Source of the DNA: a virus
Lineage: Duplodnaviria > Caudoviricetes
DNA length: 52,284 nt
Virus record (IMG/VR): IMGVR_UViG_3300029258_001145
Location: 1-52,284 of that record
Strand: one strand, 5' to 3'
Positions 10,593 to 47,912 of the stretch are shown piece by piece. Within the stretch, counting starts at the first letter, position 1. Every line of letters starts with the position of its first letter. Below the pieces are notes generated by a model. That model was given only the letters and a program-made list of their open reading frames with translations, was not told where the DNA came from and searched no databases. Both the position numbers and the translations under genes were made by a program.

Positions 10593-10639
10593 AAAAAAGG
10601 GCGACCCCCGCTTCCGTTGCGGAGTATCGCCCCACGGCG
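10593..10639 (-). terminator. Intrinsic terminator T1 in the late leader, with shared CGCYGTGGGGCG motif
   Basis: CGCCGTG-GGGCGATACTCCGC-AACGGAA-GCGGGGGTCGCCC-TTTTTT. Confidence 0.75.
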
Positions 10640-10655
10640 TGTCCATATTTTCAAG

Positions 10656-10690
10656 TTTCAAGTTAATAAGGCTCCCGTGTGGTGGTCAAG
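10656..10690 (-). promoter_or_regulatory. Putative late promoter P1
   Basis: TTGACC-17-TTAACT; CTTGACCACC-N14-TTAACTTGAAA is shared with P2. Confidence 0.7.
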
Positions 10691-10749
10691 ATTTAAGTAG
10701 CGCCTCAATACGGTCTGCGAGGAAGTAGAAGTTGCGCTGCGGAAACGGC

Positions 10750-10795
10750 TATTGGATTGTACTCGTATTGGATTGTACTCGTATTGGATTGTACT
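10750..10795. repeat. 16-bp tandem repeat, ~2.9 copies (TATTGGATTGTACTCG)
   Basis: Read directly from the sequence. Confidence 0.95.
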
Positions 10796-10869
10796 TGCCA
10801 TCGGGCACAACCTTGATTACCCACTGACCTCAACCCCTGGCGCTGTCAATCTCCGGTGCGTCCTGTCGG

Positions 10870-11118
10870 TTACCGCTCATTGGTCTTTGCTTTCGGTTGG
10901 GGGGCGCATCTGGAACACGGACGTTCGCCCGATGCGTACTCGTCGTATAGCTGTTGGAGGAAGTCGCGCATCTCTCGAACCTCCGGGATTGGGTGCTTCG
11001 CGAGAAAGCGGTCCATGTCCCTGATGCCCCAACCCAGGGCGCAGCACTCCACGCCATCCGTGCCAGAGTATAGCCATGTTCCGTCCACCGCGTCCGCTGC
11101 TGTGAATTTCTCAGCCAT
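10870..11118 (-). CDS. Hypothetical protein
   Basis: SD GAGG, 82-aa ORF, C-terminal CxxC. Confidence 0.6.
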   Translation of the reverse strand: MAEKFTAADAVDGTWLYSGTDGVECCALGWGIRDMDRFLAKHPIPEVREMRDFLQQLYDEYASGERPCSRCAPQPKAKTNER

Positions 11119-11245
11119 GATTACCTCTATTCGTCACTTTGTTGCCCCCTTGGCCTTGGCCGATAGTGCGGCGCCACCCGCGAGAGATGTCGTCCATTCG
11201 CAATCCTGAAAGCTTCACACCGCTCCTCGAACGTTGGTAGCGCGT

Positions 11246-11590
11246 TCATCCTTCCTCTCCTCTCAGTGCGCGGCCGATTTCCCTGTCAATGTCATCAAGT
11301 GGTGTGGTGAATTTCCATCCCGGACAGGACCGCACCTTGATCCGGATCTCCTCCAGGGCCTTGCGGTAGCGAAGGTTGTCTCCGATGGTGCTCACGTACT
11401 TTGCATTGGCGTCCGCAGCATCTTCGGTTCTGGCCCTTGCCTCCAGGATGAGGCGTCCGTTCTCCTCCCGCAGCCGCTCAATTTCGGCGAGGAGGTCTTC
11501 AAACTCCTGGTGTATATGGGCGTTAAGGATGTTGTTCTCGTCACGCCACTCGTGCCTCTTCCGAATCTCAGCCAGCCTCACATCATCCAT
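11246..11590 (-). CDS. Hypothetical coiled-coil protein
   Basis: SD GAGGAG; LLAEIERLREEN motif common in phage early genes. Confidence 0.7.
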   Translation of the reverse strand: MDDVRLAEIRKRHEWRDENNILNAHIHQEFEDLLAEIERLREENGRLILEARARTEDAADANAKYVSTIGDNLRYRKALEEIRIKVRSCPGWKFTTPLDDIDREIGRALRGEEG

Positions 11591-11810
11591 CGTTGGGCTC
11601 CTCGTGGGTGGTACGCAGGTCTACATGCTTGTGGAGGAACTCGCCGCACCTATAGTCCCACGGCACCGGGTTGGTTGGATATCCACCATCCCTGGGGTCA
11701 TCTGGTTCTGGGGACCACCGCTGACAGTTCATGTACCCACTGTCGATAAACGTGGCGTGGTCACAGTTCTCACACCTACGTTTGCTCACCCGTATCGTTC
11801 TCTCACTCAT
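11583..11810 (-). CDS. Small Cys-rich protein
   Basis: CENC...CQRWSP...YP...CGEF pattern. Confidence 0.65.
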   Translation of the reverse strand: MSERTIRVSKRRCENCDHATFIDSGYMNCQRWSPEPDDPRDGGYPTNPVPWDYRCGEFLHKHVDLRTTHEEPNDG

Positions 11811-11889
11811 CGGTACCCCCTTGATTAGACGTAACCTCGGTTTCCGTCTGATCTATTGGTCCACTCACCCTAGTCATCGGTCTCTCCCC

Positions 11890-12723
11890 CTATGCTGCTG
11901 TGTCGGTATAGTCCGATACGTCGATGTTGACTCGCTCGGGTTCCGTTGGCTTGCGCTCTGTGATTTCTGGCGTGTAGTCGCGTTTGAACTTCGGGTCCAG
12001 TTGCGGGCCACCCGGTGGTTCTTTCACAACTGCGCTTTCGGGGATGTGCCACGGTTCGGCCCACCACTCTTTAGGCCCGAGGAAGGTTGCCGGGTACTTC
12101 AGCTTCGTGTCCGTTGCCTTCGCCCACGCTAGGTAGCGGGCAAGGCCGGCCATCAGGTCTTCCTGACTCACACCCGCCCGCCTACGCGCCCGCCACTTCT
12201 CTAGCGCATCCTTCTTCCCAATCTTCAGCGGATAGGCTTCCCAGAACCCCAAAAACTCCCCCTCGAAGGGTGGTCGTTGGTCGTTGGTAGTAGGTCGTTG
12301 GTCCAAGATCGGAACGCTAGGGTCTCCCTCGGTTCTCGCTAGGCCCTCGCTAGAGTCTCCCGAGGGTTCCGTATCTCCCTGTGGTTCCACAACTTCCGGC
12401 GGTGGGGGTGGGAGGGTGTACTTGCTCGGGTTGTCCACACGCTGATGCTCTTCCCAATTGGTGATTTGGAGCAACCTTTGCCCGCTATCGGAGGTGTATC
12501 GAAGCACTCGCCCGAGTCTCGCGAGAGTCTCAAGAGACCCCGAGCAATCGTCGTCCGTGTCGGGGAAGAGTAGACCGTTCAGGAGGCGTATGTTGTCGTT
12601 CAGCCTCCCGGCGTCATCGGCCTGGGAGATGAGCCCGAGGAACACAAGGCGGTCGAGTGGGGGGAGTGGGGCAAGCTTTTCGTCCTGCCAGAACTCGGGC
12701 TTGATGGTGCGAATCCTAGCCAC
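11890..12723 (-). CDS. Phage replication initiator protein
   Basis: ARIRTIKPEFWQDEKL N-terminus; FWEAYPLKIGKKDA...KYPATFL C-terminal domain; GTG start 12723. Confidence 0.85.
   Translation of the reverse strand: MARIRTIKPEFWQDEKLAPLPPLDRLVFLGLISQADDAGRLNDNIRLLNGLLFPDTDDDCSGSLETLARLGRVLRYTSDSGQRLLQITNWEEHQRVDNPSKYTLPPPPPEVVEPQGDTEPSGDSSEGLARTEGDPSVPILDQRPTTNDQRPPFEGEFLGFWEAYPLKIGKKDALEKWRARRRAGVSQEDLMAGLARYLAWAKATDTKLKYPATFLGPKEWWAEPWHIPESAVVKEPPGGPQLDPKFKRDYTPEITERKPTEPERVNIDVSDYTDTAA
12270..12365. promoter_or_regulatory. Candidate replication origin (iteron-like repeats inside the initiator gene)
   Basis: TGGTCGT 7-mer repeats; three CGCTAG, two extended as CGCTAG(G/A)GTCTCCC. Confidence 0.45.
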
Positions 12724-12845
12724 GGGGAGGCTCCCAACAAAACGACCCACCCGAGCTTACTTGCGGCTGTCGCGCTTCCCTCCATCGGAGGTCGGCACCG
12801 CGTTCGACTGGGTGGGTCGGTTTCCGTTTTACCACGAAAAAAGCC
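12716..12845 (-). promoter_or_regulatory. Structured leader with 39-codon mini-ORF upstream of the initiator
   Basis: CGACCCACCC...GGGTGGGTCG stem followed by TTTTGTT; GTG 12835 to TAG 12716 overlapping the initiator start. Confidence 0.5.
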
Positions 12846-12861
12846 TTTCTGCTAAGTTCGG

Positions 12862-13827
12862 TCATTTGGTGTGGAACATTTCGCTTTGTTCGGTCCGGGT
12901 CCCGGTTACCGCCTCTCGGCAGTTTTTTATCGCCTGTCGGTAGTAAGTTTCCTTAAGCTCCACACCAACACCCCTCCGGCCCTGGACCACCGCCCCATAC
13001 ACCTCCGAACCCACACCCATGAACGGGGTGAATACAACCTCCCCAGGATTGCTCCACAAAACCACGGCTCGGTCAATCACGTCCAACTGAAGCGGGTGTA
13101 CGTGCTTCTCGTCCTCCTCGTCGCGGGCCTCGCGATACGGTAAAACCCGATCAATCCTCACATCGTCCCAGAACGCGCTTGCGTACTGTCTCCATATCCA
13201 ATGCGAATAGCGGTTCTCAATCTGGTTGCCCTTCCATTCGCGATACTGATACAGTTCGCGAGGAATTTGGCGTTCTCCAGCATATTCAAGTAGTCCGTTG
13301 GGATGGGATATCGGCACCGGATTTTCGCCCTTCTTGCGAAACATCAATAGGTAGTCGGCAGAAGCCACCGAACACCGCGACGAGTCGTCTACAATGGTTT
13401 TGTGGGCCAGGTTCTTGGCCATTGTTCGGTTACGGACCCCCAAGGGCTCCTTCCAAACACAATACCGGGCCACGTATACGAATCCGTGTTTTTCGTGGAG
13501 GCGGATAATGTCACCCGGAAAGTCGATAAGGTGGTCCTTGCCGGTATTGCTGGACGGGATGTCCATACAATGAACACCCGTCAACCGCCCCGTCATGGTC
13601 ATACGGGCAAGTTCTTCCACCACGAACCCATAGTGCTCGAAGAACTCCTCGTAACCACGGGCATTAGACAGGTCCCGCTCGGAACTGGAATAGTGGTAGA
13701 GTCCCCCGAATGGCGGAGAGTATAGAGAAAGGTGTATGCTCCCATCGGGGACCGTGGGCATAAGTTCCATACAGTCCCCGTGGTACAGTGCGTAGTGGTC
13801 GGTCACTACCTGATTCATCACAGCCAT
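12862..13827 (-). CDS. DNA amino-methyltransferase (N4-C/N6-A, beta class)
   Basis: YHGDC, YSPPF (motif IV), KHVHPLQ, PFMGVGSE (motif I), GVELK. Confidence 0.9.
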   Translation of the reverse strand: MAVMNQVVTDHYALYHGDCMELMPTVPDGSIHLSLYSPPFGGLYHYSSSERDLSNARGYEEFFEHYGFVVEELARMTMTGRLTGVHCMDIPSSNTGKDHLIDFPGDIIRLHEKHGFVYVARYCVWKEPLGVRNRTMAKNLAHKTIVDDSSRCSVASADYLLMFRKKGENPVPISHPNGLLEYAGERQIPRELYQYREWKGNQIENRYSHWIWRQYASAFWDDVRIDRVLPYREARDEEDEKHVHPLQLDVIDRAVVLWSNPGEVVFTPFMGVGSEVYGAVVQGRRGVGVELKETYYRQAIKNCREAVTGTRTEQSEMFHTK

Positions 13828-15194
13828 TTCGGGAGCCTCGCATCTAAATTATGGATATGTTCGGTTCGTTTGATCTGTAGGGCGTCTTTCATGTGGGCCA
13901 GTAGGGCGTCAAACATCTTGTCCGCTTGTTCCGACTTCCGTTTCAAATTTTCCACCACCCGCCTTTCGCCCTCGGTCGCTACAATATCCACGGTCACAGG
14001 CCGCTTCTGTCCAAAGCGCCAACACCTTCGAACGCCCTGGTAATACTGTTCGTAGGAATGGGATGGAAAAAACGTAACGTGGTTGCACTCTTGAAGGTTA
14101 AGGCCCCAGGCTCCTATCTTGGGTTTAGTTACAAGGACGGGTAATTCTCCATTGGCAAACGCCGTTAACCGCTCTTCTTTTTTCTCCACCGAGTCCGCAC
14201 CCTTGACCTGCCTTGCTCGCGGTATCAGTTCCTCCAGTAGGTCGCCCTCGTCATTTAGATGACACCAGATAAGGGCTTGGGCCGAATCCTCAACCATCTC
14301 CGCCACAAACTGACACCGCTCTTGAATCGTCCGCTTCCGCTCCTCGCGTTGTTCTTCCAAAGTCACGGCGGGTAGGTCGAACAACCACCCCTCACGGGTT
14401 GTTTTGGCGTCTACGATGTGTTCGTTCTCGGTGAGCTTCGGGAGAATAAAGCCGCTGTCCTCGTATCCGTAGTCTGAGGGCTTGCGAATCGCCCTGGCCC
14501 AAGAGGACACCCATTGCCAAAACGGCCCTTCCGCATGGCCCTTGAAGCGCCACTGTGCCGCCTTGCCATAGTACCGGCGCTCTGCCGAAACGCTGGAGGT
14601 TGTGGTCCGGAAGAATCTGGACAACATATCCATGTACCCCAATTCCCCGAGGGCCTCGGAACTAGTGCCCAATTCGATGTAGTCGTTGGGAGCGGCGGTT
14701 GCGGTGCAAAGTAGGCGATACCTGAGCGGCCGCATAAACTCTGTGACCACCGCCTTCCGCGCCCCATTGAAGTTTTTCAGGATACTGGACTCATCGGCCA
14801 CCATGCCCGCGAATTGAGTGTTATCAAACCGCTCAAGTCGCTCGTAGTTAGTGGTGACTATCCGCGCCCCGGTGGGGACCCTTCCGTCCGACACCCTCAC
14901 CGCCTCAATTCCAAACTTTTCCGCTTCCCCTATCAGTTGGTAGCCCACCGCCAGGGGGGTCGCAATTAGAACGGGCTTATTCGTTTCCCTGACCACGTTC
15001 TCGGCCCACACAAGTTGCATGGGGGTCTTACCCATTCCGCAATCCGCAAAGATCGCCGCCCGCCCCCTGCGTACCGCCCAATCCACGATGTCCCGCTGAA
15101 AACCAAACAGGAACTCTGGCAGGGTGTTGGGCTCAAAGCCATCGGCCACACCAATCTGAGATTTTTGGTTAAGGAATGCCTCATACTTGCCCAA
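13818..15194 (-). CDS. SNF2-like SF2 helicase
   Basis: ADCGMGKT, ADESS, TATAAPN, GLNLQ, YQGVRRCWRFGQ; probable TTG start 15194 after GGAGG. Confidence 0.9.
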   Translation of the reverse strand: MGKYEAFLNQKSQIGVADGFEPNTLPEFLFGFQRDIVDWAVRRGRAAIFADCGMGKTPMQLVWAENVVRETNKPVLIATPLAVGYQLIGEAEKFGIEAVRVSDGRVPTGARIVTTNYERLERFDNTQFAGMVADESSILKNFNGARKAVVTEFMRPLRYRLLCTATAAPNDYIELGTSSEALGELGYMDMLSRFFRTTTSSVSAERRYYGKAAQWRFKGHAEGPFWQWVSSWARAIRKPSDYGYEDSGFILPKLTENEHIVDAKTTREGWLFDLPAVTLEEQREERKRTIQERCQFVAEMVEDSAQALIWCHLNDEGDLLEELIPRARQVKGADSVEKKEERLTAFANGELPVLVTKPKIGAWGLNLQECNHVTFFPSHSYEQYYQGVRRCWRFGQKRPVTVDIVATEGERRVVENLKRKSEQADKMFDALLAHMKDALQIKRTEHIHNLDARLPKWL

Positions 15195-15495
15195 GAAAAG
15201 CCTCCACAGATTCAAAGATCGGAATACCAAGCCGGCCGGCCTTTTCGGTTTCCACATCGGCCCCGGCACTCTCACCGGGAAGTCTGACCACTGCTTCCGC
15301 AAACGGCAACCACGCCAGGTCAATTCGCATCCAATCTTCCCAGGGCCGTGGAAAGGCTAGGTCCTGGAAATGTGTCAGGAGTGGACAGAAAGGTTCGTGG
15401 CCAGCAGCAATAAGTTGGTCCATTGCCTTCATGGCGTTTCTGACATTCTCAGACCTGTCACCCTTGGTGTAGGGACCAGCAACATAGACTCTCAT
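15181..15495 (-). CDS. Nucleoside 2-deoxyribosyltransferase-like protein (DUF4406/DUF1937 type)
   Basis: MRVYVAGPYT...DLAWL...LPGESAGADVE...GIPIF. Confidence 0.75.
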   Translation of the reverse strand: MRVYVAGPYTKGDRSENVRNAMKAMDQLIAAGHEPFCPLLTHFQDLAFPRPWEDWMRIDLAWLPFAEAVVRLPGESAGADVETEKAGRLGIPIFESVEAFLGQV

Positions 15496-15520
15496 GTCAC
15501 CCTCATTGTACGTGCGAAGC

Positions 15521-18954: not shown

Positions 18955-18966
18955 CGGTATGCCCCC

Positions 18967-19082: not shown

Positions 19083-19088
19083 GAGTAC

Positions 19089-22197: not shown

Positions 22198-22322
22198 GGC
22201 TAGTGGGCTGGCCGGGCACCTACCATCCCATCCCGGCTACTCCTGGTAGACAGTGACCAGGCTGTTGCCTAAGCACGGCGCTGTCACTCGGGGTTTCATA
22301 CACTCGCCGCAGCCCACTAGCC
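22198..22322 (-). ncRNA. Candidate structured ncRNA (~125 nt, multibranch)
   Basis: Perfect 13-bp closing stem GGCTAGTGGGCTG/CAGCCCACTAGCC; internal AGTGAC/GTCACT and GCCGGG/CCCGGC stems; intergenic. Confidence 0.55.
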
Positions 22323-25432: not shown

Positions 25433-25630
25433 CTACCAAACCCGGTCGTACAATTCTTTGGCATCCCGGATCTTCACGTTCTTCCCGGTGACGGCCATCA
25501 TGTGCTGGCGGAGGACTCGCACCTCTCGGAGTTCCTGCGTCATGGAGTACCCACCCGAGTTCGCCAGCTTCACGCCGCGGGCGACTTCGTGTATCAGGTT
25601 GATAAGCGTTTTCTCTTGCGCCTCGTTCAT
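25433..25630 (-). CDS. Hypothetical protein
   Basis: GGAGG SD, ATGA coupling. Confidence 0.6.
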   Translation of the reverse strand: MNEAQEKTLINLIHEVARGVKLANSGGYSMTQELREVRVLRQHMMAVTGKNVKIRDAKELYDRVW

Positions 25631-29138: not shown

Positions 29139-29588
29139 TTGACGACGTTCACGGAGCGGTTCGCGAAGGTGGTTGAAGCCAAAGGACCGGAGAAACAGGT
29201 CGTGGCAGAACTACTTGGAGTGGACCCGAATCAGATTAGCCAGTGGTTGGGGGGAAGGAAGCCCAGCCTCGAACACTTGAGCAACATGAGCAAGAAGCTC
29301 AACGTCTCCGGGCACTGGCTCCTGACCGGCGAGGGCACAATGGATGACACGCCCGAGGAGGCACAGAAGAAACTCGGGGAACTCGAACGGAAACTAGCTG
29401 AGGCTCAGGACATCATTTCTAGGCCATCAGACGCAGAGCCTGGTTCCGTGGATGTCCTCCGGCGCGCTGGATTGCTTCCCTCAGATAAAGAGCCGGACTC
29501 GGAGGACGAGAGTACACAAACCGAAGATGATGATGATGACCCAGAAGCCGAGCCATCTGGTAGCGATCCAGTTCCGGCCCGAGGATGA
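29139..29588 (+). CDS. XRE-family HTH repressor (CI-like, no peptidase domain)
   Basis: VAELLGVDPNQISQWLGGRKPS...NVSGHWLLTGEG; divergent from the early operon. Confidence 0.85.
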   Translation: MTTFTERFAKVVEAKGPEKQVVAELLGVDPNQISQWLGGRKPSLEHLSNMSKKLNVSGHWLLTGEGTMDDTPEEAQKKLGELERKLAEAQDIISRPSDAEPGSVDVLRRAGLLPSDKEPDSEDESTQTEDDDDDPEAEPSGSDPVPARG

Positions 29589-35535: not shown

Positions 35536-35537
35536 GC

Positions 35538-38270: not shown

Positions 38271-41200
38271 CAGACGAACACCCTGCCCGCAGCGATCTCT
38301 TGTTTGACCACCGCACCACCAAGTCCAGCATCCAGACCACCACCCGTATTCCTGACAATGGCGCGGTTACTCCCGGCGATATCCTGAAGCACGGCAAGCG
38401 AAGACAGCAGAATCGCATTCATCTGCATCCCGGCTGTTTCAGATAGGCCCGCCGCTGTCGAGTGGTGAACTGTTGAGCCTGTAGGTGTTGTGACATTCGG
38501 TGCTGCGGCCGACCGTGGTTCGTCGGGCGGATACAGCAGGTCCCAGAGGTTTTGATATTCTCGGGTCTGGAGTTCCTTTAGCCGCTCAATGACCCCCCCG
38601 GTGACACCGGCTTCAATGGCCTCATTCAATGCCTGTTGCTGGCGAATCTGTAGTTGGAGTAGGCGGGCCTCTTCATCGAGTCCTGCGGCATAGAGTTCCC
38701 TGACCCGAATGTCCTCAATGAGCGAAAGCTGGTAGCGTTCCTGTGCTTCAGCGGCGAGTTCGGCAGCCTCGGCGATCTCCTCAAACAGACCTGCGAGTTC
38801 GGCTTCCTGGAGCGCCTTCAGTGCCTCGACGAGATCGTCTGATGCGCCATCCTCAATGGCTTCATTCAACTCCCTTTGGTGCTTGAGTTGGAGTTGAAGG
38901 ATCTCGTAGCCTTCATTCATGCCCCGCACCTGGAGTGTGCGTAGCCTGATGTCCTCTTCAAGCGCGGTCGGGTCGTATATCGTCTCGACAACCTCATTCA
39001 GGCCATCAATGAACTGATCCCATTCAAGCCCCAGGATCTCGCGGAGTGCGGCAAGCTGGTCCTCTGACCACCCATCCTCGATGGCCTTGTTTAGTTCGTT
39101 GCGTTGTTCGATCTCCTTCTGGCGCATCTCCAGTTCGTCGCCCTGGAGGCCGATCAGTGAACGGCGATCTTCGAGTGAGAGGTCTATCGCTGCAGCTTCT
39201 TTCGCTAGGCGTGCCGCTTCCTTGGCCGCCTTCGCCTCTTCCTCCCTGGCCCTGGCCAACTCTTCTAGTGCCTGGATCTCCGCTAGACGGGCACGGGTTT
39301 CGACGTCCCAACCGGCGGCCTCTGCGGCGGCCAGTTCCTTGCGATTGTCAATCTCGCGCCGTAGTGCCTCGGACTCTTCGGTCAGGCCCAGGGCCGCCAG
39401 TTCCCGCACGTCCAGGCTTTCGTGATACAGCGCCGTGACCTCGGCCATCTTGTCGGCCAAGAGTTGTTCGAGTTTCAGGCGTTCGGCTTCGATCTCTAGC
39501 GGATCGGTGGTGCGCGGTTGGGCTGTACGGGTCAGGGCATCTAGTTGGGCATTCAGGTCCTCGAACCACGCAGTCAGGCTTGACGGCGTTCCACCAACGG
39601 CATCCTCGAATTGTTCGACCGATTCTTGGAAACGCTCAGTCGCCTCGCGTTCTCGGTCGAGGCGGTCAAGCTCCATCTGCTGGTGACGTGCGCGGCTGGC
39701 CGCATCCTCTTCAAAGAGGCCCCTGATGCCGCTTACCATACTCCCGATAAGCGGAACAACAGCACCCTGGAATGCGGTGGCATTGAGTTGGGCGGGGGAG
39801 AAGCCTACGCCCCCCTCGCTTTCGGCGGCCTCACGAACCGCTGCCCACGCATCAGCGGCATCCCAAACGACACCCGCAGTCAGTCCAATTGTGCGGTTGA
39901 CCTCTTCCAGGGCCGAGCCGACAGCCTGGAGGCCCTCGTGCCAGTCAGTTGTTTCGTCGGCGACGTACTCTAGGCTGCCGGCCACCCCGGCCAATTCGGT
40001 ACGAACAGGCGCGAGATCCAGCCCGAGCCACGGACTGATGCCGGACAATCCACCGCCACCGGCACCCGACCAGCGGTCGGCAGTCGATTGGATGAATGCC
40101 TGTTCGGCCTGTTCTTTCGCCGCCTTGATGGCTTCCGTGAGTTGTTCGTAGGCGGTCTTGGTGTCTTCAACATCTTTCTTTACACCCTGCTGCTCCTTCC
40201 GCCATTTCTCCATGAACTCGTCAAGAGTCGGCGGAAGCGTGATGGCCTCCATCTCGTCGCCAGTGCCCCTCACCAGTTCAAAGACGTCGGACCATGTTTC
40301 TTTCAGATCAGAAAAAGCGCCCTTCGGGTCTAGTTCATAGATTGCCTTGTCAATGGCATTGAGGGTCTTGAGGATACCGCCGAAAATGGCCGCAGCCTCG
40401 GCCGCCTTCTCTGCCGTCTGCCGGAAGTCTTCCATTGACTCCCTGGCCTCATCGACGTCCGGGATGAACTCCTCGATTACGGGCAGAAACTCAGTGGCGA
40501 CAATCTCTTTGGCTTCGCGGAACATCGCGCCGAGTTGGCGGGTGGTTCCCTGCGTTGTGTCAAGCGTCTCTTCAAGGTTGCCGACCTGTACACCGGCCCG
40601 GTCGTACATCAGCGCCACAGCGGCCAGCGCCTTCTCTTCGCGGGTTACCTCGCTGATGTGGTTCTTCTTGGTATCGAGCAGAACTTGCTCTTTGAGGGCT
40701 GCTTCGTCGTAGTACAGGCCGAGCCGTTTCAGCGCCTCACGCTCTCCCGTGAGTGCCGATGTGAGGGCGTGTAGAACCTGCTCGGTGGGAAGATTGTTGA
40801 ATGCCGCCACGTCACCAGCGAGCCGGACGATCTGTTCCGACATTTCGGCCGACGCCTTGGCCGATGCACCCATACCCTGCGCCACGACCGCCGTGGTGGC
40901 CATCATCTCACGGGCTTCTGTGACCGTGAGCCCCATCTTGTTGGCGTACTCGCCCAAGAACTCATCCGCCTCTTTGATGGCGGGCCCGAGGGCGATACGG
41001 AACTTGTCGGCGGTCTCCTGGACCGCAGCACCCGTCTCAAGTACGAACTGCGTGAACTTGATCGTGCCCGCCACGGCAGCAGCACCGGCCACAGCAGCAT
41101 ACGCCGACTTCAGGGAATGAAGGCCCTGTGTAAGCTTGTTGGTGCTTTTCTTTTGGGTCTCGTTCGCGCCCTCTTGTTCGCGCTGCGCTTTGGCTACATC

Positions 41201-42054: not shown

Positions 42055-42072
42055 CAGTTTGCCTCCTGAAGT

Positions 42073-42092
42073 GGGGGCCCCGAAGGGCCCCC
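42073..42092 (-). promoter_or_regulatory. GC hairpin with UUCG loop after the tail tube gene
   Basis: GGGGCCC-TTCG-GGGCCCC; no U-tract, so a stabiliser or weak terminator. Confidence 0.5.
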
Positions 42093-42099
42093 GGTTGGT

Positions 42100-43248
42100 C
42101 TATGCAGCCATCTTCGTTATGTGGACCGTGTAGCCGGTCGTCGCGTCCTTCGACGCCTCCCACTTCACGTTTTCCATGATGTCCGAGTCGATGCCCGGCG
42201 TCTTCGTGTCATCGTCCGCGAAGTAGATGCAGGGCAGGTGGACACCATAGGCATTGCCCGCCGTATCCTGGAACGCGAAGAACAGTGCTGACTGCGTGTG
42301 GGCCAGCCACTTCGTCTTGATGTCATTGTTCGCGAAATAGAGGCTGATCGTGCCCTCGGCCGTGACCGTGCCAAGCCCGATATCGTTCGGATCAGTCGAG
42401 CCACAGACGTCCTGGCTACGCAGCGGATTCGTGATGTTGATGGTTGCGCCCGTCACCGTGACATCGGCGGGCGTAGTGCCCTCCCCCACAATGACTAGGT
42501 TTGAGACCGCATTCATGATCTTCGTTGAGGTCGCTGCCGTGGGAGACCCCGTTCCAATCGTTGAAGAGTCAACGTTTTCGGTGTTGCCCATGAATGGGAA
42601 CGAGACCGAAACCTTGTCTTTTGCCTTGAACGACAGGTCCATCCCCCCACACCGGCAGCCTAGCCAGTTGGAAAAGACGTTCGTGAGGTCGGTATGTTCG
42701 CGCTCGAACGAGAACGACCGAGTCTCTGTGCCGTTCTTCACGACAGCACCCGAGATGGTCACACTTTGACCGGCACTCTCGGTCGTTGCGGGATTCGGGT
42801 AGACGCCGAGTGCGCCAGCGGCGGCGGCCTCGACGTAGTAGACGCGGTTCAGGCTCGACGCACTGAAGCCGCTGACCTTGACGAACTGGCCGACCTCGAA
42901 CGAGCCGAGGCCACTACCCGAGTCGGTTAACTCGGTGGCCGTTGCGGCAATCGACGTGTCGGTCACCGAGGTCTCGGCCCCGAAGTCGGCCGACCGAATT
43001 GCAGACGTGATGAACTCGTCATACGTGCCGAAACTCAACTCGCCCGGCAGCTCACCGACCGAACCATAGCCAGTCTCGATGATGTCACCACGCTGGGCAT
43101 CACCAACGAGTTCGGCACTCTTCATGGTGCTCTTGGTGCCCTTAAACCCGTCACCCGTGGTACGAAGAATCTGAAGGGCCGATGCGGGCGTAGTGCCCCT
43201 GGTTACCTCTTCGATGTACCGGAAGGCCACAGAAGAACTGTCAGCCAT
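42100..43248 (-). CDS. Major tail tube protein
   Basis: AAGGAG SD; YIEEVTRGTTP, ELSFGTYD, RSFSFE, GTISLYF. Confidence 0.9.
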   Translation of the reverse strand: MADSSSVAFRYIEEVTRGTTPASALQILRTTGDGFKGTKSTMKSAELVGDAQRGDIIETGYGSVGELPGELSFGTYDEFITSAIRSADFGAETSVTDTSIAATATELTDSGSGLGSFEVGQFVKVSGFSASSLNRVYYVEAAAAGALGVYPNPATTESAGQSVTISGAVVKNGTETRSFSFEREHTDLTNVFSNWLGCRCGGMDLSFKAKDKVSVSFPFMGNTENVDSSTIGTGSPTAATSTKIMNAVSNLVIVGEGTTPADVTVTGATINITNPLRSQDVCGSTDPNDIGLGTVTAEGTISLYFANNDIKTKWLAHTQSALFFAFQDTAGNAYGVHLPCIYFADDDTKTPGIDSDIMENVKWEASKDATTGYTVHITKMAA

Positions 43249-43283
43249 GTTCCTGCTCCTTTTTGTGGCCTCTTACGGCCCAG

Positions 43284-43330
43284 AAGAAAAAGGGGCGGCA
43301 CCTCCGACATTGGAGGCCCGCCCCACGGCG
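43284..43330 (-). terminator. Intrinsic terminator T3 upstream of the tail tube gene, with shared motif
   Basis: CGCCGT-GGGGCGG-GCCTCC-AATGTC-GGAGG-TG-CCGCCCC-TTTTTCTT. Confidence 0.8.
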
Positions 43331-43347
43331 CTCTTTCGCTATGTTTC

Positions 43348-43788
43348 CTAGACTACCGTGAACTGCTCATCATATTCGTAGGGAACCTCAACGTCGGTCT
43401 GGAACCAGTTCCCCACGGGCCCAATGGACCGGATTGTTGGCGTCCGATACTGCACACTCGCAGCACCGGACTCCTCTTGTTTGCCACGGAACGCGGCGGC
43501 CACCGTCACGGCCCTAGACGTTCCAGCCCCCGCCCCCAGGTGGCGAAGTGTGAACAGCGACAGAATCAGTAGGCCGGGGTGTCTGTACAGGTTCGTTCCG
43601 GCCCCAACATCAGCCTGGAACGCGCTTTCCGTCGCCGTGGCATAGGTCACAACCATATACCCGTCTACGTTGTCTGTATCTGGATCGGGCACCTCGGTTG
43701 CTGTATTCGCCCAAAGCACGTCAAAGCCCGTCGGCTTGTTCGTGTTCACACGAGCCTCAATGAGGGCGCGGGCCGTCGTCTCACTCAC
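43348..43788 (-). CDS. Tail terminator/completion protein
   Basis: Position; YRHPGLL...GAGAG...AAAFRG...WFQTDVEVPY. Confidence 0.75.
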   Translation of the reverse strand: MSETTARALIEARVNTNKPTGFDVLWANTATEVPDPDTDNVDGYMVVTYATATESAFQADVGAGTNLYRHPGLLILSLFTLRHLGAGAGTSRAVTVAAAFRGKQEESGAASVQYRTPTIRSIGPVGNWFQTDVEVPYEYDEQFTVV

Positions 43789-44273
43789 TTGAACCTCCCG
43801 GCCCGGAGCATCGACTTGACGGCCTCAACGGACGCCCTCACAAAGCCGGTACCAGACTTGATCGACCCGGCCCGCATTGTACTTCCGCCGGACCTCGAAC
43901 TCGTGCCTGTCACGACGCCGTACTCCAGCGCCTTGGCATAGGGGACATTGTTTGATAGGCCGATGTATTTGGGGATCAACTGAAACTCGCCCTTCAGGGC
44001 GTCCATGGCATTGTTGGCCCGATTTCTCGACTGTGCTTCTGCCGCCCGCCGGGTTCCCGGACCCTCACCAAATTCCCAGGACGAAAAATGGTCGAGGCTC
44101 ACATCCCACGACCCAACGAAGCGCCCGGTATCAACGGGGCTCGCGGTCATTATCATTCGAAGAAGCTGGAAAACCACCTTCCGCAGTCGGTCGTTGTAGG
44201 CGCCTGTCACGCCGTCATTGATCCACTTGTCGGCCAACGCCTCAAATCCGGCAGAATCGACAATCTTCGTCAT
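43785..44273 (-). CDS. HK97 gp10-like neck protein
   Basis: SPVDTGRFVGSW, SNNVPYAKALEYG. Confidence 0.85.
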   Translation of the reverse strand: MTKIVDSAGFEALADKWINDGVTGAYNDRLRKVVFQLLRMIMTASPVDTGRFVGSWDVSLDHFSSWEFGEGPGTRRAAEAQSRNRANNAMDALKGEFQLIPKYIGLSNNVPYAKALEYGVVTGTSSRSGGSTMRAGSIKSGTGFVRASVEAVKSMLRAGRFK

Positions 44274-44662
44274 CCGCCAATCCTCAGGTGCGCCTGCCAG
44301 GACACGATTTCATTGCCGGTGCCGTGGTCTACGAGGCCGACAATCTTCCATTGTGCATTCGCGCGCTCGGTCGAAAACTCGATGACATCACCCTTCCGGG
44401 GGTCATCTGGCAAGCCATCATTCACGATGATCCCGAAGCGGTCTCCCGGCTGGACCGCCCCGTCGTTCCTGAGTTGGTCCGCCGTCGCACTCCACCACGC
44501 CATAGTCATGGTGTGAGGGAATCCGGCGGGTTCGGACGGTGTGAGCGCCTGGGTCGTGGTGCTGTACGTCCCGTCCGTCAGACGACGGAACAACACATCG
44601 GCCTCGGCCACCTTCGCCGCCGCCTTCACGGCCCGGGTCAACTTGCCATCGAGGAGACCCAC
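44270..44662 (-). CDS. Head closure/head-tail joining protein
   Basis: Position; DGAVQPGDR...PRKGDVI. Confidence 0.7.
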   Translation of the reverse strand: MGLLDGKLTRAVKAAAKVAEADVLFRRLTDGTYSTTTQALTPSEPAGFPHTMTMAWWSATADQLRNDGAVQPGDRFGIIVNDGLPDDPRKGDVIEFSTERANAQWKIVGLVDHGTGNEIVSWQAHLRIGG

Positions 44663-45012
44663 TAGACGTAGCCTTCAACCGCCAGGAACGGCGTCTCACC
44701 ATTCGTGTACGGCATGAAAAACACGTCTTCGTGGCCCCACGAATACGTCTGGCCGGATGCGCCTTCGGGCACATAGATTCGGCCTTGCTGCTCGCCGTCC
44801 GGTGTAGCTTCAACCAGTGCTTTGGTCCGGGCGATATAGCACGCCTTTGAGGCATAGCCGATCTTGACAAACGACACGGCGACCCCGGCACCGGCCCCAT
44901 CATTGAACGTCTGGGTTTCCGAGCCGGAGAGCACCTTTTCGCCCGTACCATCGCCGGCCGAGTGTGTGAGTTCGTTGGTATAGGGCGGTGCGCCCGTAAT
45001 TCCCTTACTCAT
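44662..45012 (-). CDS. Hypothetical virion-region protein
   Basis: GGAG SD; inserted among the connector genes. Confidence 0.65.
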   Translation of the reverse strand: MSKGITGAPPYTNELTHSAGDGTGEKVLSGSETQTFNDGAGAGVAVSFVKIGYASKACYIARTKALVEATPDGEQQGRIYVPEGASGQTYSWGHEDVFFMPYTNGETPFLAVEGYV

Positions 45013-45022
45013 GTCATCTCCA

Positions 45023-45526
45023 TTAGCCGCGAACGAGTGATACGGTCGAACGGCTTGTTATCAGCCAGAGTCGTAGGTCGCGCCTGACTTCCGCCGGAAG
45101 CTCACCGGCAGTCCGACCGTGGCGCGGCTCCACACTGATTGGCCCGACCCGAACACTTTCGAAGCCTTCAAGGCCGGTATCGACCAGGAGATCATCAGAG
45201 TCCAGAGCCAAGGCCAGCTTGAATTGTGCGTTCTTGATTCGTTGGGGGATGACGTCATTGTCGAGTGAGTTGCCATCCTCATCATAAAGCCCGTCTCGCG
45301 GGAACTTCATGGCCTGGTCGGCATCACTCTTGACAGCCTTGTAGTTCTCCTGGTCGATACGATCCGCCGCCGTAATCAAAAGCCGGTTTTTCGTGTCATC
45401 CGCTTTCGCGTCCAGGGTTGCAGCAGCAGCATCCGACCGTTCATCGAGCCAAGCATCAAACTCAACCAACGTGCCGTAGCTGTTGGAATCTTCGCCCCCA
45501 ACGGTTGCGTCAATCGTCGCTGCCAC
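45023..45526 (-). CDS. Head-tail adaptor protein (DnaT-like family)
   Basis: SNSYGTL, LITAADRID, QAMKFPR, IPQRIKNAQFKLA, RVGPISV. Confidence 0.8.
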   Translation of the reverse strand: MAATIDATVGGEDSNSYGTLVEFDAWLDERSDAAAATLDAKADDTKNRLLITAADRIDQENYKAVKSDADQAMKFPRDGLYDEDGNSLDNDVIPQRIKNAQFKLALALDSDDLLVDTGLEGFESVRVGPISVEPRHGRTAGELPAEVRRDLRLWLITSRSTVSLVRG

Positions 45527-45989
45527 CAGTCATCTCCATGTAATCCGCCCATGCCGCATTTTCGGCGGCCTCTCGTTTGTGGCCGGCTTTCAGCTCCCGG
45601 CCATCCGGCGAGACGGGCCTGTGCCAGGTGCCACGCTTCTCGATCCGGTAACCCGGCGGAAGTGTCGGGTCCTGATGTTCTTTCAGGTTGGGAAGGCCCG
45701 GCATGGGCTGGGGCGCATCGGCCAGGATACGGACATTGAAACCCGCTTCCTGGAGAGGTGGAACAACCCTCATGGCCGCTTCTGTGACAAAGACCAGATC
45801 CACATCGGCACCACCGACCTGGAACTCGAAATCGCCATCAAAGCGGGCTGCATTTCTAGGCAGCACCCGCCCATCGAAGTCGCCAATCAACCGCAACGCC
45901 TGGTCCGTTTCCCTGGTCCTGCAATACAACAGTGCCAGCATGGCAAGCCTCCAGAGTGGGGCAGGGCCAAGCGGCCCCGCCCCTGTCAT
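45510..45989 (-). CDS. Hypothetical protein after the capsid gene
   Basis: In-operon ORF; start uncertain. Confidence 0.55.
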   Translation of the reverse strand: MTGAGPLGPAPLWRLAMLALLYCRTRETDQALRLIGDFDGRVLPRNAARFDGDFEFQVGGADVDLVFVTEAAMRVVPPLQEAGFNVRILADAPQPMPGLPNLKEHQDPTLPPGYRIEKRGTWHRPVSPDGRELKAGHKREAAENAAWADYMEMTGGSDD

Positions 45990-45992
45990 TGC

Positions 45993-46991
45993 CTACCGGG
46001 TCGTAACGATGACGCCGGGCAGCAGCTTGTTGTCCGCTACGACGGTGTCCCAATTCGTAGCCGTGGCAACGTTCGTGTTGGTCGGGTTGACTCCACCATT
46101 CGTGGTGTCCCACTGACAGCCCAGCAGCCCGAGGTTGTAGGCGTACTCGGCCTGCCACCGGAAGAACAGGTTCTCCGATCCAGTCAACGGACCCTCCATA
46201 ACCGCGATGGGCGGCTCGGAGATATCGACCTGGATGGCTCCCTTGCGGAGGCCGAGAATCGAGTACTTGTCCTGGGCCGAACTCACCCCACCCGTCTCAA
46301 CCAGCGAGGTCGAGTCGATGACCAGTGTGGGCCGGTTCAGGGTGTAGGGGTTGGCCTCATAGAGCGTAGCACCGATATCGGTGGAGCCCCAGATCGTGGC
46401 CGTCGAAGCGAACTGTGCGGCCATCAGATCGAAGTACTGAGCCGAGTGCATGACCCAGAGCACGACTCCGCCAGCCGAATCCCCAGCCTTTTTCAGGCCA
46501 TTTATCATCGCGGCATTCGTGATGGTGGACGCCGTGTTGTCGTACTCCAGTGCGGCAATGCTGTCGAGCTTGGCTTCGCAGGCGGCGAGACCCCGGTCGA
46601 TCATCTCTTTCGGTACCGCAACGGCGGTCTGTTGACCGATGACACGACTGAAGCCCCTCGGATCGAAGCCCTTCTTGCGCTGGGCGTCGATGTTGACCTC
46701 GTAAGGGCCATTCCGGCGGTTCAGCTTGACACTGATGAACTCGTCCTGCGTCAGTGCAGTCGCAGTGACGGTGTCCGAGGACTGTTTGGAGATGTCCCGC
46801 CTGGCGATGGCACTCACCTCATCCCACATCGCCTCCTTCTCGTAGTGCCCGAGAAGGGAGCGGGTGTTCAGGGTGATCGCGCCAGCGGAAGCGGCGTTGA
46901 ATGCGGAAACATTCTGGGCAAGCGTCTCGATGAACCCGCCCTGGAACTGTTCGTCAACAATGACGTAGTTGGCATAGGTAGAGGTAGCCAT
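45993..46991 (-). CDS. Major capsid protein
   Basis: AGGAG SD; follows the scaffold; NVSAFNAASAGAI, WVMHS, C-terminal NPT..ATATNW...PGV. Confidence 0.92.
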   Translation of the reverse strand: MATSTYANYVIVDEQFQGGFIETLAQNVSAFNAASAGAITLNTRSLLGHYEKEAMWDEVSAIARRDISKQSSDTVTATALTQDEFISVKLNRRNGPYEVNIDAQRKKGFDPRGFSRVIGQQTAVAVPKEMIDRGLAACEAKLDSIAALEYDNTASTITNAAMINGLKKAGDSAGGVVLWVMHSAQYFDLMAAQFASTATIWGSTDIGATLYEANPYTLNRPTLVIDSTSLVETGGVSSAQDKYSILGLRKGAIQVDISEPPIAVMEGPLTGSENLFFRWQAEYAYNLGLLGCQWDTTNGGVNPTNTNVATATNWDTVVADNKLLPGVIVTTR

Positions 46992-47024
46992 CTGTGGTCA
47001 GTCTCCTGATTGGAGACCGAGGCG

Positions 47025-47813
47025 CTACTGTCCGTATTCGGCAGCAATCAGTTTCCGAAACGCTTCCTCACCATGCTCTTCGGTGTAGGCGATCTTTTCG
47101 GCCTCGGTCATGTCTTTAAGTGCTTTCGACCGAGCGCCCCTAGCGCCCTTCCGACCGGGGGACCCGCCACCAGTCGCGTCCGAACCCTTGAAGAGGCAGG
47201 CATACTTGGGTACACCACTCATCTCTTCGATCAGTTCGGCCATAGTCATGTCGTTGCCGTCCTTGTTCAGTCGGCGTTCGCCATGCTCATCGACAACGAT
47301 CACCCGCTCTTCGCCGCCCTCCGTAATCGTCTTGGTCTGACCCATGACGTGGGGCAGGGCGGCATCAACAAAGGCATCGGCCTCGTTTAGGTGGGTGACC
47401 GCCGCATTCTTCCTCAGCACGGTATCGAGCTGCTGTCGCAACGAACTGTTTTTCTCTTGTTCCGCCGCGATTGCGCTCTCGTGCGCCTTCTGCTGCTTCT
47501 CGCGCAGCTTCTCCCATTCGCCCTTCTCTTCGGCCTTCTGGGTTTCGCGTTCCTCGCGTTCCTTCCTGAGTTCGGCGAGTTCGGCAAGATCCGTCTCGGG
47601 ATCAAAACCCTCGGGCAAAGAGGACAGTCGCTCCATTGCAGACCGCCGCTTGTCCTTCTCCTTGGCGAGGGCCGATTTCAGACCGGAAACCTCGCCTTCG
47701 GGGACAAACCCCTTGATGGGCCTTAGGTGAAACCCACCGTCCCGCTCTTCGTACAGCTCGTGTAGTGCTTCCGGCACCGTCTCCAACGATTCCAGTGTCA
47801 CTTCGAGATCCAT
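47025..47813 (-). CDS. Capsid scaffold protein
   Basis: LESLETVPEALHELY...GLKSAL.KE coiled coil; C-terminal MTEAEKIAY.EEHG. Confidence 0.85.
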   Translation of the reverse strand: MDLEVTLESLETVPEALHELYEERDGGFHLRPIKGFVPEGEVSGLKSALAKEKDKRRSAMERLSSLPEGFDPETDLAELAELRKEREERETQKAEEKGEWEKLREKQQKAHESAIAAEQEKNSSLRQQLDTVLRKNAAVTHLNEADAFVDAALPHVMGQTKTITEGGEERVIVVDEHGERRLNKDGNDMTMAELIEEMSGVPKYACLFKGSDATGGGSPGRKGARGARSKALKDMTEAEKIAYTEEHGEEAFRKLIAAEYGQ

Positions 47814-47863
47814 ATGTGCGCCCCTCCAGGGCGTGTGTTTCTGCGGCCTAGACCCGCTAAACC

Positions 47864-47912
47864 GGAAAAGAAAAAAGGGGCGACCTCTCCGAAGAGAAAT
47901 CGCCCCACAGCG
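47864..47912 (-). terminator. Intrinsic terminator T2 upstream of scaffold/capsid, with shared motif
   Basis: CGCTGT-GGGGCGATTTCTC-TTCG-GAGAGGTCGCCCC-TTTTTTCTTTT. Confidence 0.85.

What the first reader, a model, noticed from the sequence alone, without database searches (positions are those of the whole stretch)
10593..47912. Three terminators with a shared 12-nt motif gate the packaging, capsid and tail modules: candidate sequence-specific antitermination system
Seen: T1 (10593-10639, before terS/terL), T2 (47864-47912, before scaffold/MCP) and T3 (43284-43330, before the tail tube) all begin CGCYGTGGGGCG. The CGCYGT part lies 5' of the stem and is unpaired, so hairpin pairing does not explain its conservation, while the loops differ completely. 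T1 and T2 lie just downstream of near-identical promoters, so transcription would stop before any structural gene unless the hairpin is blocked. No Q- or N-like antiterminator is recognisable. Inference: a phage protein or antisense RNA uses CGCYGU as a toehold to open the terminators and switch on all late modules together.
Basis: partly seen in the sequence, partly recalled or inferred. Interest (0 to 1): 0.82.

Follow-up and report, generated by a model that had tools for sequence, protein, structure and literature searches.

The report
Shared box at three phage terminators
Three transcription stop signals that sit in front of the packaging, capsid and tail genes of an uncultured temperate phage carry the same short sequence at their foot, and related phages keep it too, which suggests, without proving, that a phage factor opens these stops to switch on late genes.

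Summary
CGCYGTGGGGCG occurs exactly three times (0.08 expected). All three copies are on the coding strand, each at the 5' foot of one of the three strongest hairpin-plus-U-tract terminators in this complete 52-kb phage genome. T1 and T2 follow twin TTGACC-N18-TAAsTT promoters, and no room for another promoter lies between terminator and gene.

New here:
- A relative, G001 (54% capsid identity), has the same two promoter-hairpin cassettes. Its two feet share 16 of 16 bases while the upper stems differ.
- A third phage, G007, has a T1-type terminator.
- All six feet read CGCY-NN-GGGGCG, with only NN varying.
- CGCY can pair with GGCG of the terminator's 5' arm, so the flank is not simply "unpaired". 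Statistical support for this small hairpin is only moderate.
- A conserved 72-aa zinc-ribbon gene of no known family directly follows T1 in all three phages.

No Q, N or AlpA relative was found in 63 ORFs, and no trans-encoded complementary RNA. No RNA data exist.

Verdict: these are real late-operon gate terminators with a selected foot box. Box-directed antitermination is the best reading (about 0.4), and Q-like processive antitermination is the main rival.

The parts
10660..10690 (-). Late promoter P-T1: CTTGACC (-35, 10689-10684), 18-nt spacer, TAACTT (-10, 10665-10660)
   Evidence: The same TTGACC-N18-TAnnnT layout stands before the equivalent genes in L006, L007, L008, L010, G001 A/B and L199. 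No transcript data exist.
10628..10639 (-). Foot box of T1, CGCCGTGGGGCG (flank CGCCGT plus the first six stem bases)
10593..10633 (-). Terminator T1: hairpin 10633-10599 and U-tract 10598-10593
   Evidence: -23.7 kcal/mol; UUUUUU
10363..10581 (-). 72-aa CPxC...H...C zinc-ribbon ORF, first gene after T1. Its stop overlaps the terS start (ATGA). Candidate trans factor.
   Evidence: Homologues sit in the same position in G001 (43% identity), L199 (42%) and G007 (51%). The family has 98 representatives. No Pfam family. AF2 model pLDDT 93 with no fold match.
47958..47988 (-). Late promoter P-T2: CTTGACC (-35, 47987-47982), 18-nt spacer, TAAGTT (-10, 47963-47958). The -35 overlaps the stop of ORF 47984-48343.
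47933..47948 (-). First leader hairpin of the T2 leader, GGGGCC-CGAG-GGCUCC
   Evidence: A comparable first hairpin is predicted in the leaders of L006, L007 and L008.
47901..47912 (-). Foot box of T2, CGCTGTGGGGCG
47871..47906 (-). Terminator T2: hairpin 47906-47877 (13 bp, UUCG loop) and U-tract 47876-47871
   Evidence: -24.1 kcal/mol; fold z-score -3.2
43319..43330 (-). Foot box of T3, CGCCGTGGGGCG, 17 nt after the stop of the tail terminator gene
43287..43324 (-). Terminator T3: hairpin 43324-43292 and U-tract 43291-43287. No promoter of the P-T1/P-T2 type lies upstream.
   Evidence: -27.6 kcal/mol. G001 has only a 12-nt gap at this position.

Best explanation
Shown by sequence: T1, T2 and T3 are intrinsic terminators that gate the late operon of a temperate siphovirus. 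T1 and T2 are leader terminators 15-40 nt downstream of twin sigma70-type promoters. T3 is an internal gate before the major tail gene.

Inferred: the promoters fire constitutively and transcription stops at the gates unless termination is suppressed.

Shown by comparison: the shared 12-mer is a selected 'foot box', CGCY-NN-GGGGCG.

Most likely role (inferred): the box addresses these terminators to a phage factor. Its 5' half (CGCY) can pair with GGCG of the terminator's 5' arm, forming a 4-bp hairpin that forms first on the nascent RNA. Alone it is too weak to stop the terminator from folding. A protein that clamps this hairpin, or the single-stranded box, would keep the foot of the terminator stem from closing and let polymerase read on. 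Bacterial BglG/LicT and ANTAR proteins work this way on antiterminator hairpins.

Best candidate factor (speculative): the conserved 72-aa zinc-ribbon protein encoded immediately after T1. Leaky read-through of T1 would then feed back positively and open T1, T2 and T3 together.
For: 1. The three box-bearing sites are the only canonical terminators in the genome, and the box occurs nowhere else.
2. Genes begin 12-50 nt after each U-tract with no promoter in between.
3. G001 has promoter-hairpin cassettes at the same two places: after the replication genes and before the Zn-ribbon ORF and terminase, and before the scaffold gene. Its two feet share 16 of 16 bases (GCCGCCCAGGGGCGGC; only 2 copies in 60 kb). 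Spacers, leaders and upper stems differ. This is the conservation footprint of a functional element, not of a recent whole-unit copy.
4. Six feet from three phages align as CGC-Y-NN-GGGGCG: 9 invariant columns, one C/U column that keeps a G-U pair, and two free columns that would be loop.
5. Terminators of other phages of this capsid family do not share feet within a genome: maximum 7 of 12 in 74 pairs, and no twin hairpins in the five further whole records G002-G006.
6. The small hairpin is the predicted nascent fold in T1 and T2; in T3 the fold predicted for the nascent RNA pairs the box with a complementary stretch about 30 nt upstream instead. It is stronger in G001 (-11.2 kcal/mol). Among 127 terminators of the wider family, the two best flank/arm hairpins belong to the close relatives L008 and L007.
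7. The Zn-ribbon ORF is the only small non-structural protein shared by the window and G001 at tblastn E<1e-4, although their terminases are not homologous. It follows the T1-type cassette in the window, G001 and G007.
8. The box-plus-terminator pattern is not a common feature of bacterial genomes: at most 5 matches per genome in 802 genomes of two classes, and most matches are not hairpins.
Against: - There is no transcript or binding evidence of any kind. No RNA run holds this phage.
- The small hairpin has only 4 bp. The terminator is 7-14 kcal/mol more stable and the predicted barrier to displacement is about 5-6 kcal/mol.
- Shuffling each site's own flank gives p of only 0.01-0.18.
- In the six-sequence alignment, three of the four core pairs never vary and one varies on one side, so there is no compensatory covariation, and the shuffle control is not exceeded.
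- L006 (72% capsid identity), L007 and L008 have pre-scaffold terminators without the box. L199 (75% TerL identity) has the promoter and the Zn-ribbon ORF but no terminator.
- L086/L087 carry CGCCGTGGGGCGG at a hairpin foot, but no Zn-ribbon homologue was found in the DNA held for them.
- The Zn-ribbon protein has no family or fold match that would indicate RNA binding. One of 41 members gives a sub-threshold hit to Mu Com.
- Its gene lies downstream of the gate it would open.
- The box is also a partial DNA palindrome, perfect 7+2+7 in G001, so a DNA-level reading is not excluded.
Confidence: 0.4

Rival explanations
1. Processive antitermination of the lambda Q / AlpA / Xp10 p7 kind. An unrecognised phage protein modifies RNA polymerase at or near the twin promoters, and the modified enzyme ignores all downstream terminators. 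The foot box is not the recognition site. It is kept for terminator efficiency or by descent.
For: - A constitutive-looking promoter followed at once by a terminator, placed at the early/late boundary, is the lambda pR'-tR' layout. PMC7547250, PMC9388147 and PMC7969949 were seen as search listings with the start of each abstract only.
- Pre-scaffold terminators without any shared box occur in 25 of 82 non-identical related loci.
- Pseudomonas-type prophages have a promoter-leader-terminator before their late genes and a promoter-less double terminator before the scaffold gene. This fits a polymerase-borne mechanism.
- Q families are mutually unrelated and small antiterminators are easy to miss. 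An 82-aa Cys-rich ORF (10870-11118) sits in the 'Q position' just upstream of P-T1.
Against: - No Q, N or AlpA-like family was found in 63 ORFs scanned. The 82-aa ORF has no informative look-alike and no tblastn match in G001.
- A processive mechanism does not explain why flank and foot are identical within each of two genomes while upper stems diverged.
- The promoter spacers, where lambda Q binds, are not conserved between P-T1 and P-T2.
Confidence: 0.3
2. Unregulated leaky attenuators or insulators. The terminators always stop a fixed share of polymerases. This insulates late modules from early read-through and sets stoichiometry. The flank is a built-in competitor hairpin that tunes the leak, and no trans factor is involved.
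For: - The flank/5'-arm hairpin is predicted as the nascent fold.
- Its strength differs between lineages: -3.4 to -5.9 kcal/mol in the window and -11.2 in G001.
- Attenuators inside late operons are common; 16 of 82 relatives have a terminator right after the MCP gene.
Against: - The gates lie before, not after, the most abundantly needed genes (scaffold/MCP, major tail).
- A temperate phage needs its late genes off in the lysogen, and the promoters look constitutive.
- A pure structural role would need complementarity only, not the same sequence at every gate and in three phages.
- The computed barrier is low.
Confidence: 0.15
3. Repeated regulatory cassette kept alike by recombination (concerted evolution) or by recent copying. 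The promoter-terminator unit is a mobile or recombining module boundary and the flank has no function of its own.
For: - T3 is absent from G001, so it was gained in the window's lineage with the same foot.
- The cassette plus Zn-ribbon ORF sits at a mosaic junction: the window and G001 share it but not the terminase genes.
- Promoter/stem-loop cassettes at module junctions are described for T4-type phages. This is recalled; no paper was consulted.
Against: - Identity is confined to 12-16 nt at the 5' foot and about 10-19 nt at the 3' foot and tail, split by unrelated upper stems. This holds in two separate lineages. Conversion tracts would be contiguous, and such short identities are poor substrates for recombination.
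- The box is also conserved between genomes whose Zn-ribbon proteins are only 43-51% identical.
Confidence: 0.08
4. DNA-level site. The box is an operator for a dimeric DNA-binding protein that acts as a roadblock or loading site, rather than an RNA signal.
For: The box is a partial palindrome: CGCC-N4-GGCG in the window and a perfect 7-2-7 inverted repeat GCCGCCC-AG-GGGCGGC in G001.
Against: - In all six cases the site is locked to the 5' foot of a terminator hairpin, at variable distance from the promoter (about 15 to 45 nt).
- T3 has no promoter.
- The box occurs on the transcribed strand only.
Confidence: 0.07

Closest known systems
Lambda late control: pR' promoter, tR' terminator, Q antiterminator (also Q21, Q82)
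   Same: A promoter at the early/late boundary is followed within tens of nucleotides by an intrinsic terminator. All structural genes lie behind it, and further terminators lie inside the late operon.
   Different: - No Q-family protein was found.
- There are two promoter-terminator cassettes instead of one.
- The terminators share a conserved foot sequence, which Q (bound to DNA at the promoter and riding on the polymerase) does not need.
- The comparison rests on listings and abstract starts of PMC7547250, PMC9388147 and 10.1101/651190 and on textbook knowledge.
AlpA of Pseudomonas aeruginosa (small DNA-binding processive antiterminator)
   Same: A small regulator lets polymerase bypass an intrinsic terminator placed just downstream of a promoter of lysis-type genes (PMC7969949, abstract start only).
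   Different: AlpA loads at a DNA element by the promoter. No AlpA-like family was seen here, and the conserved element here is at the terminator.
Protein-stabilised antiterminator hairpins of bacteria (BglG/SacY/LicT with RAT; ANTAR regulators). Recalled, no paper consulted.
   Same: A short alternative hairpin overlaps the 5' arm of a leader terminator and would need a bound protein to win against the terminator.
   Different: The element here is only 12 nt with 4 bp. No CAT/PRD or ANTAR domain was found in the ORFs scanned. Such a system is not known to me for the late genes of a phage.
Mu Com, a 62-aa zinc-finger protein that binds mom mRNA next to a hairpin and changes its fold
   Same: A very small phage zinc-binding protein acts sequence-specifically on RNA beside a stem-loop (PMC6483171, abstract start only).
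   Different: Com activates translation, not read-through. Similarity to the Zn-ribbon family here is one sub-threshold hit in 41 members (E 0.0077), so this is an analogy and not membership.
HK022 put RNA (cis-acting, protein-free antitermination). Recalled.
   Same: Structured RNA sits directly downstream of promoters. T2-type leaders have two successive hairpins.
   Different: In put, both hairpins act on the polymerase and the terminators lie further downstream. Here the second hairpin is itself a terminator with a U-tract. No Rfam family matched.

Membership tests
Intrinsic (Rho-independent) terminator | GC-rich stem-loop directly followed by a U-tract, on the transcribed strand | tested here: met
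   stems of -23.7 to -27.6 kcal/mol followed by 5-6 U. These are the three best sites of the genome.
Intrinsic (Rho-independent) terminator | RNA 3' ends form at the U-tract | not testable with these tools
   No RNA holder was listed. The DNA contigs laid cannot show RNA ends.
Sigma70-type promoter | -35 and -10 hexamers at 16-19 nt spacing, kept in relatives while the spacer varies | tested here: met
   TTGACC-N18-TAAsTT at both sites. TTGACC/TTGACA/TTGCCC-N17-18-TAnnnT stands in L006, L007, L008, L010, G001 A/B and L199. The tool's own stricter consensus scan did not list them.
Lambda Q-type late antitermination | A Q-family protein (Q-lambda, Q21 or Q82 type) encoded by the phage | tested here: not met
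   63 ORFs were scanned, with PHROGs for about 57 of them and with Pfam for 20; no Q, N or other named antiterminator family matched, and most small early ORFs had PHROGs only. About 25 structural and glycan-cluster ORFs were not scanned.
Lambda Q-type late antitermination | Q-binding element and sigma-dependent pause element at the promoter | tested here: inconclusive
   The spacers of P-T1 and P-T2 are unrelated. A shared GAAA...ATAGG/ATATGG after the -10 could be a pause element, but this rests on inspection only.
Protein-stabilised antiterminator hairpin (RAT / ANTAR type) | An alternative hairpin that overlaps the terminator's 5' arm | tested here: inconclusive
   The hairpin is present and is the predicted nascent fold. 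However, own-flank shuffle p is 0.01-0.18 and there is no compensatory covariation.
Protein-stabilised antiterminator hairpin (RAT / ANTAR type) | CAT/PRD or ANTAR RNA-binding domain protein | tested here: not met
   None among the families returned. Pfam itself was run on only 20 window ORFs and on the Zn-ribbon alignment.
Mu Com-like zinc-finger RNA-binding proteins | Match to the Com zinc-ribbon family at its curated threshold | tested here: not met
   1 of 41 family members matched, E 0.0077, below threshold. There was no fold match in PDB or BFVD at E<=0.001.

The most novel reading that the evidence does not exclude
A self-reinforcing, terminator-addressed late switch. A new family of about 70-aa zinc-ribbon proteins is always encoded as the first gene behind a leader terminator. 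The protein binds the CGCY-NN-GGGGCG foot box on nascent RNA and prevents the terminator stem from closing. The first leaked transcripts therefore open every gate (packaging, capsid, tail) at once. This would be a sequence-specific, RNA-directed antitermination system for phage late genes, distinct from the N, Q, put, p7 and AlpA mechanisms.
Probability: 0.2. Interest if true: 0.85.

Novelty: new variant of a known kind. Interest (0 to 1): 0.6.

Why it matters
Late-gene control by antitermination is a textbook mechanism, but it is known mainly from polymerase-borne factors (N, Q, p7, AlpA).

If the foot box is a recognition site, this phage group would show a different logic in which the terminators themselves are addressed. 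That logic would come with a compact protein/RNA pair (a 72-aa protein and a 12-nt box) that could be tested in a few reporter constructs and reused as a small orthogonal switch.

Two results stand even if the mechanism turns out to be processive:
- The comparative pattern is a clean, testable case of selection on the 5' flank of intrinsic terminators, which is normally regarded as unconstrained. The foot is identical within genomes, the box is conserved across three phages, and the upper stems vary freely.
- A protein family without annotation (98 representatives) is pinned to a defined regulatory position.

Tried and rejected
- Chance: rejected.
- Host convention for terminators: the pattern CGCCNNGGGGCG-N8-30-CGCC-N0-2-TTT matched 2 times in five bacterial genomes, against 2 for the reversed control. 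It matched in 30 of 401 and 61 of 401 genomes of two classes, never more than 5 per genome with overlapping matches counted, and most matches are not hairpins. I did not total the control columns. The count 61 includes one match in the unpublished genome G652, and no other claim rests on that genome.
- Trans-encoded antisense RNA: no complementary copy exists in the genome.
- Link to the candidate RNA at 22198-22322: the 8-mer count is at chance.
- Known RNA families: none; there was one sub-threshold miRNA hit elsewhere.
- Expression data: no RNA holder was listed.
- Strain variation at the box: X1 and X3 are identical to the window. The roughly 96-97% identical contigs of X5 do not cover T2 or T3, so nothing was learned.
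- Close relatives: there is no megablast match in phages. The best cultured capsid relative has 40% identity, and the best in bacterial genomes 44%. The host remains unknown.
- The 82-aa ORF in the 'Q position': the Atlas gave nothing usable.
- Zn-ribbon homologues: the word-index search found only the query itself, and the first locus scans found nothing new. The exhaustive search did find the family, but its genomic contexts could not be fetched.
- Wider scan for the box terminator in viral contigs: 2 hits for the strict pattern (L086/L087). For the GGGGCGAT type there were 7 hits, of which only G007 is a terminator.
- TerL relatives: no box-type hairpin lies upstream in 45 loci scanned.
- Supplements of papers were not consulted. 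All papers cited were seen only as search listings with the start of the abstract.

Full report
**What the window is.** The window is a complete IMG/VR virus record with a 144-nt terminal repeat. It has 59% G+C, and nearly all genes lie on the - strand. PHROGs and Pfam identify a CI-like repressor on the + strand (29139-29588). They also identify an early/middle operon with Erf, exonuclease, SSB, RusA, integrase, helicase, methylase and a replication initiator (about 29000 down to 10870). Behind it lies a late operon: small ORF, terS, terL, portal, a glycan-enzyme cluster that wraps across the window ends, MuF-like protein, scaffold, MCP, connectors, tail terminator, major tail, chaperones and tape measure. 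It is a temperate siphovirus with no close cultured relative. The best capsid identity is 40% among cultured phages and 44% in bacterial genomes. It is held by sediment and seawater metagenomes. The host is unknown.

**The observation.** On the - strand all three sites read CGCYGT-GGGGCG, followed by a hairpin and 5-6 U.
- The exact 12-mer occurs 3 times against 0.08 expected, with 0 of 100 shuffles reaching 3. It occurs only on the - strand.
- A scan of both strands for hairpin+U-tract ranks T3, T2 and T1 first, at -27.6, -24.1 and -23.7 kcal/mol. Everything below is irregular and lies in coding sequence. Every canonical terminator of the genome therefore carries the box.
- T1 and T2 are preceded by CTTGACCACC, a spacer, and TTAAsTTGAAA, which reads as TTGACC-N18-TAAsTT.
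- The distances from U-tract to the next start codon are 12, 50 and 35 nt, with no promoter-like sequence between. The genes behind can therefore only be transcribed by read-through.
- As an empirical control I scanned about 190 related loci. In 74 within-locus terminator pairs from 37 loci, the best identity over 6 flank + 6 stem bases is 7 of 12, against 11-12 of 12 here.

**Relatives.**
- The capsid family is large, with 254 proteins at E<=0.001. Only fragments are closer than 60% identity.
- Upstream of the scaffold gene, L006 (72%), L007 (62%), L008 (56%) and L009/G001 (54%) all have a TTGACC-type promoter with an 18-nt spacer and a TAnnnT -10, followed by a strong hairpin.
- In the wider family, 25 of 82 non-identical loci have a hairpin+U-tract before the scaffold gene, and 16 of 82 have one right after the MCP gene.
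- Pseudomonas-type prophages have a promoter-leader-terminator before their first late gene and a promoter-less double terminator before the scaffold gene.
- A gate before the head genes is thus recurrent but not universal. L006, L007 and L008 do not carry the box.

**The decisive comparison.**
- The whole record of L009, called G001 (60 kb, 67% G+C), holds two promoter-hairpin cassettes. One lies after a DnaB-like gene and before a small ORF plus the terminase genes. The other lies before the scaffold gene.
- Their feet share GCCGCCCAGGGGCGGC, 16 of 16 bases, with only two copies in the record. The 3' foot and tail are also alike. Promoter spacers, leaders and upper stems differ.
- This is the pattern of the window repeated in a lineage with 54% capsid identity and non-homologous terminases.
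- G001 has no T3; the gap there is 12 nt.
- Five further whole records show nothing similar.
- A third phage, G007, was found through the small ORF. It has a promoter-like site, a leader, and CGCCCG-GGGGCGATCACTCC...GGAGTGCTCGCCC-TTCTTT before that ORF.
- Aligned, the six feet read CGC-Y-NN-GGGGCG, with NN = GT, CA or CG.
- The closest TerL relative, L199 (75%), keeps the promoter and the small ORF but has no terminator.

**What the flank can do.**
- CGCY is complementary to GGCG of the 5' arm. CGCC-GUGG-GGCG has -5.9 kcal/mol, and -3.4 with the U of T2, where a U-A pair extends it. It is the predicted fold of the nascent RNA of T1 and T2 before the 3' arm exists; for T3 the predicted nascent fold instead pairs the box with an upstream complementary stretch.
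- In G001 the equivalent hairpin has 6 bp and -11.2 kcal/mol.
- The variable NN positions fall in the loop, and the only variable stem position changes C-G to U-G.
- L007 (GGCC-UGAA-GGCC) and L008 (GCGGG-N7-CCCGC) have analogous hairpins. These are the two strongest among 127 terminators of the wider family, whose overall distribution equals that of shuffled flanks.

This evidence is moderate only:
- Shuffling each site's own flank gives p from 0.0095 to 0.18.
- The six-sequence alignment has no compensatory change and does not exceed its shuffle control.
- The full terminator is 7-14 kcal/mol more stable, with a predicted barrier of about 5-6 kcal/mol.

Unaided, the small hairpin would not prevent termination. 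It would need a clamp.

**Candidate factors.**
- No Q, N or other known antiterminator family appeared in 63 ORFs.
- The last early ORF (10870-11118, 82 aa, four Cys) sits where lambda has Q. It has no informative relatives and no match in G001.
- The 72-aa ORF right after T1 (10363-10581; CPxC...H...C) is conserved in G001, L199 and G007 at 42-51% identity.
- It is the only small non-structural protein shared by the window and G001.
- It belongs to a family of 98 representatives, 33 of them at E<=1e-10.
- It has no Pfam family; one of 41 members gives a sub-threshold hit to Mu Com.
- Its model is confident (pLDDT 93) and matches nothing in PDB or BFVD at E<=0.001.
- Many gene calls of the family carry N-terminal extensions that translate a G-rich...C-rich-UUU stretch.

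**Reading.**
- The anatomy (shown) says promoter, gate, genes. Regulated read-through is the natural inference for a temperate phage.
- The comparative footprint (shown) says that the 5' flank and foot are selected, identical within genomes, and conserved as a box across three phages.
- A polymerase-borne antiterminator explains the first point but not the second. A factor that reads the box explains both, and the small hairpin gives it a mechanism with bacterial precedent.
- I therefore rank box-directed antitermination first (0.4) and Q/AlpA-like processive antitermination second (0.3). Unregulated tuned attenuators (0.15), concerted evolution of a cassette (0.08) and a DNA operator (0.07) follow.

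**Novelty.** Leader terminators with antitermination are known. A conserved terminator-foot box tied to an unannotated zinc-ribbon family in phages was not found in the two literature searches on antitermination that I made. This is not proof that it is unpublished. I rate it a new variant of a known kind.

Noticed in passing
window 10750-10795: A perfect 16-nt tandem repeat, 2.9 copies (GTACAATCCAATACGA on the - strand), lies about 60 nt upstream of the -35 of P-T1 in the gap after the last early ORF. It could be iterons, a regulator site or a packaging signal.
   Followed up: no
window 1-144 and 52141-52284: An exact 144-nt direct terminal repeat, so the unique genome is 52,140 nt and is probably a circular assembly. 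The late operon runs across the window ends.
   Followed up: partly
window 10870-11118 (-): An 82-aa ORF with CC...CxxC is the last gene before P-T1 (the 'Q position'). It has no family, no match in G001 and a low-confidence Atlas model.
   Followed up: partly
L196:5459-5570 and L196:18695-18815 (G001 25459-25570, 38695-38815): G001's two cassettes also share the sequence after the stem, TTTCGCGTYCAG. Their U-tracts are short (3-4 U). In this 67% G+C phage the hairpins may be weak or non-canonical terminators.
   Followed up: partly
L086:9531-9574, L087:5354-5398: Two related viral contigs carry the exact box CGCCGTGGGGCGG at the foot of a 7-bp hairpin after a gene end, with a U-run 10 nt further on. 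No Zn-ribbon homologue was found in the DNA held. Their relation to the window's phage is unknown.
   Followed up: partly
L169, L170, L172, L039, L046 (about 1826-2300 and about 9152 in locus coordinates): Pseudomonas/Bowmanella-type prophages have TTGACA-N17-TAGTAT, a leader with a small hairpin, and a terminator directly before the first late (lysis-like) gene. A double terminator stands before the scaffold gene. The two stems resemble each other (AGCCYYGGC...GCCGGGGCT) but the flanks do not.
   Followed up: partly
window vs G001: The window and G001 share the Zn-ribbon ORF, portal, MuF, capsid and glycan-cluster genes, but not terS/terL. The promoter-terminator-Zn-ribbon unit therefore sits at a mosaic junction.
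   Followed up: partly
window 42215-49745 (run X5): An aquaculture metagenome holds short contigs of a strain about 96-97% identical, with mostly silent-looking transitions. None covers T2 or T3.
   Followed up: yes
window 47933-47948; L006, L007, L008 leaders: T2-type leaders begin with a separate GC-rich hairpin right after the presumed start site, before the terminator. This two-hairpin leader is kept by structure and not by sequence in four lineages.
   Followed up: partly
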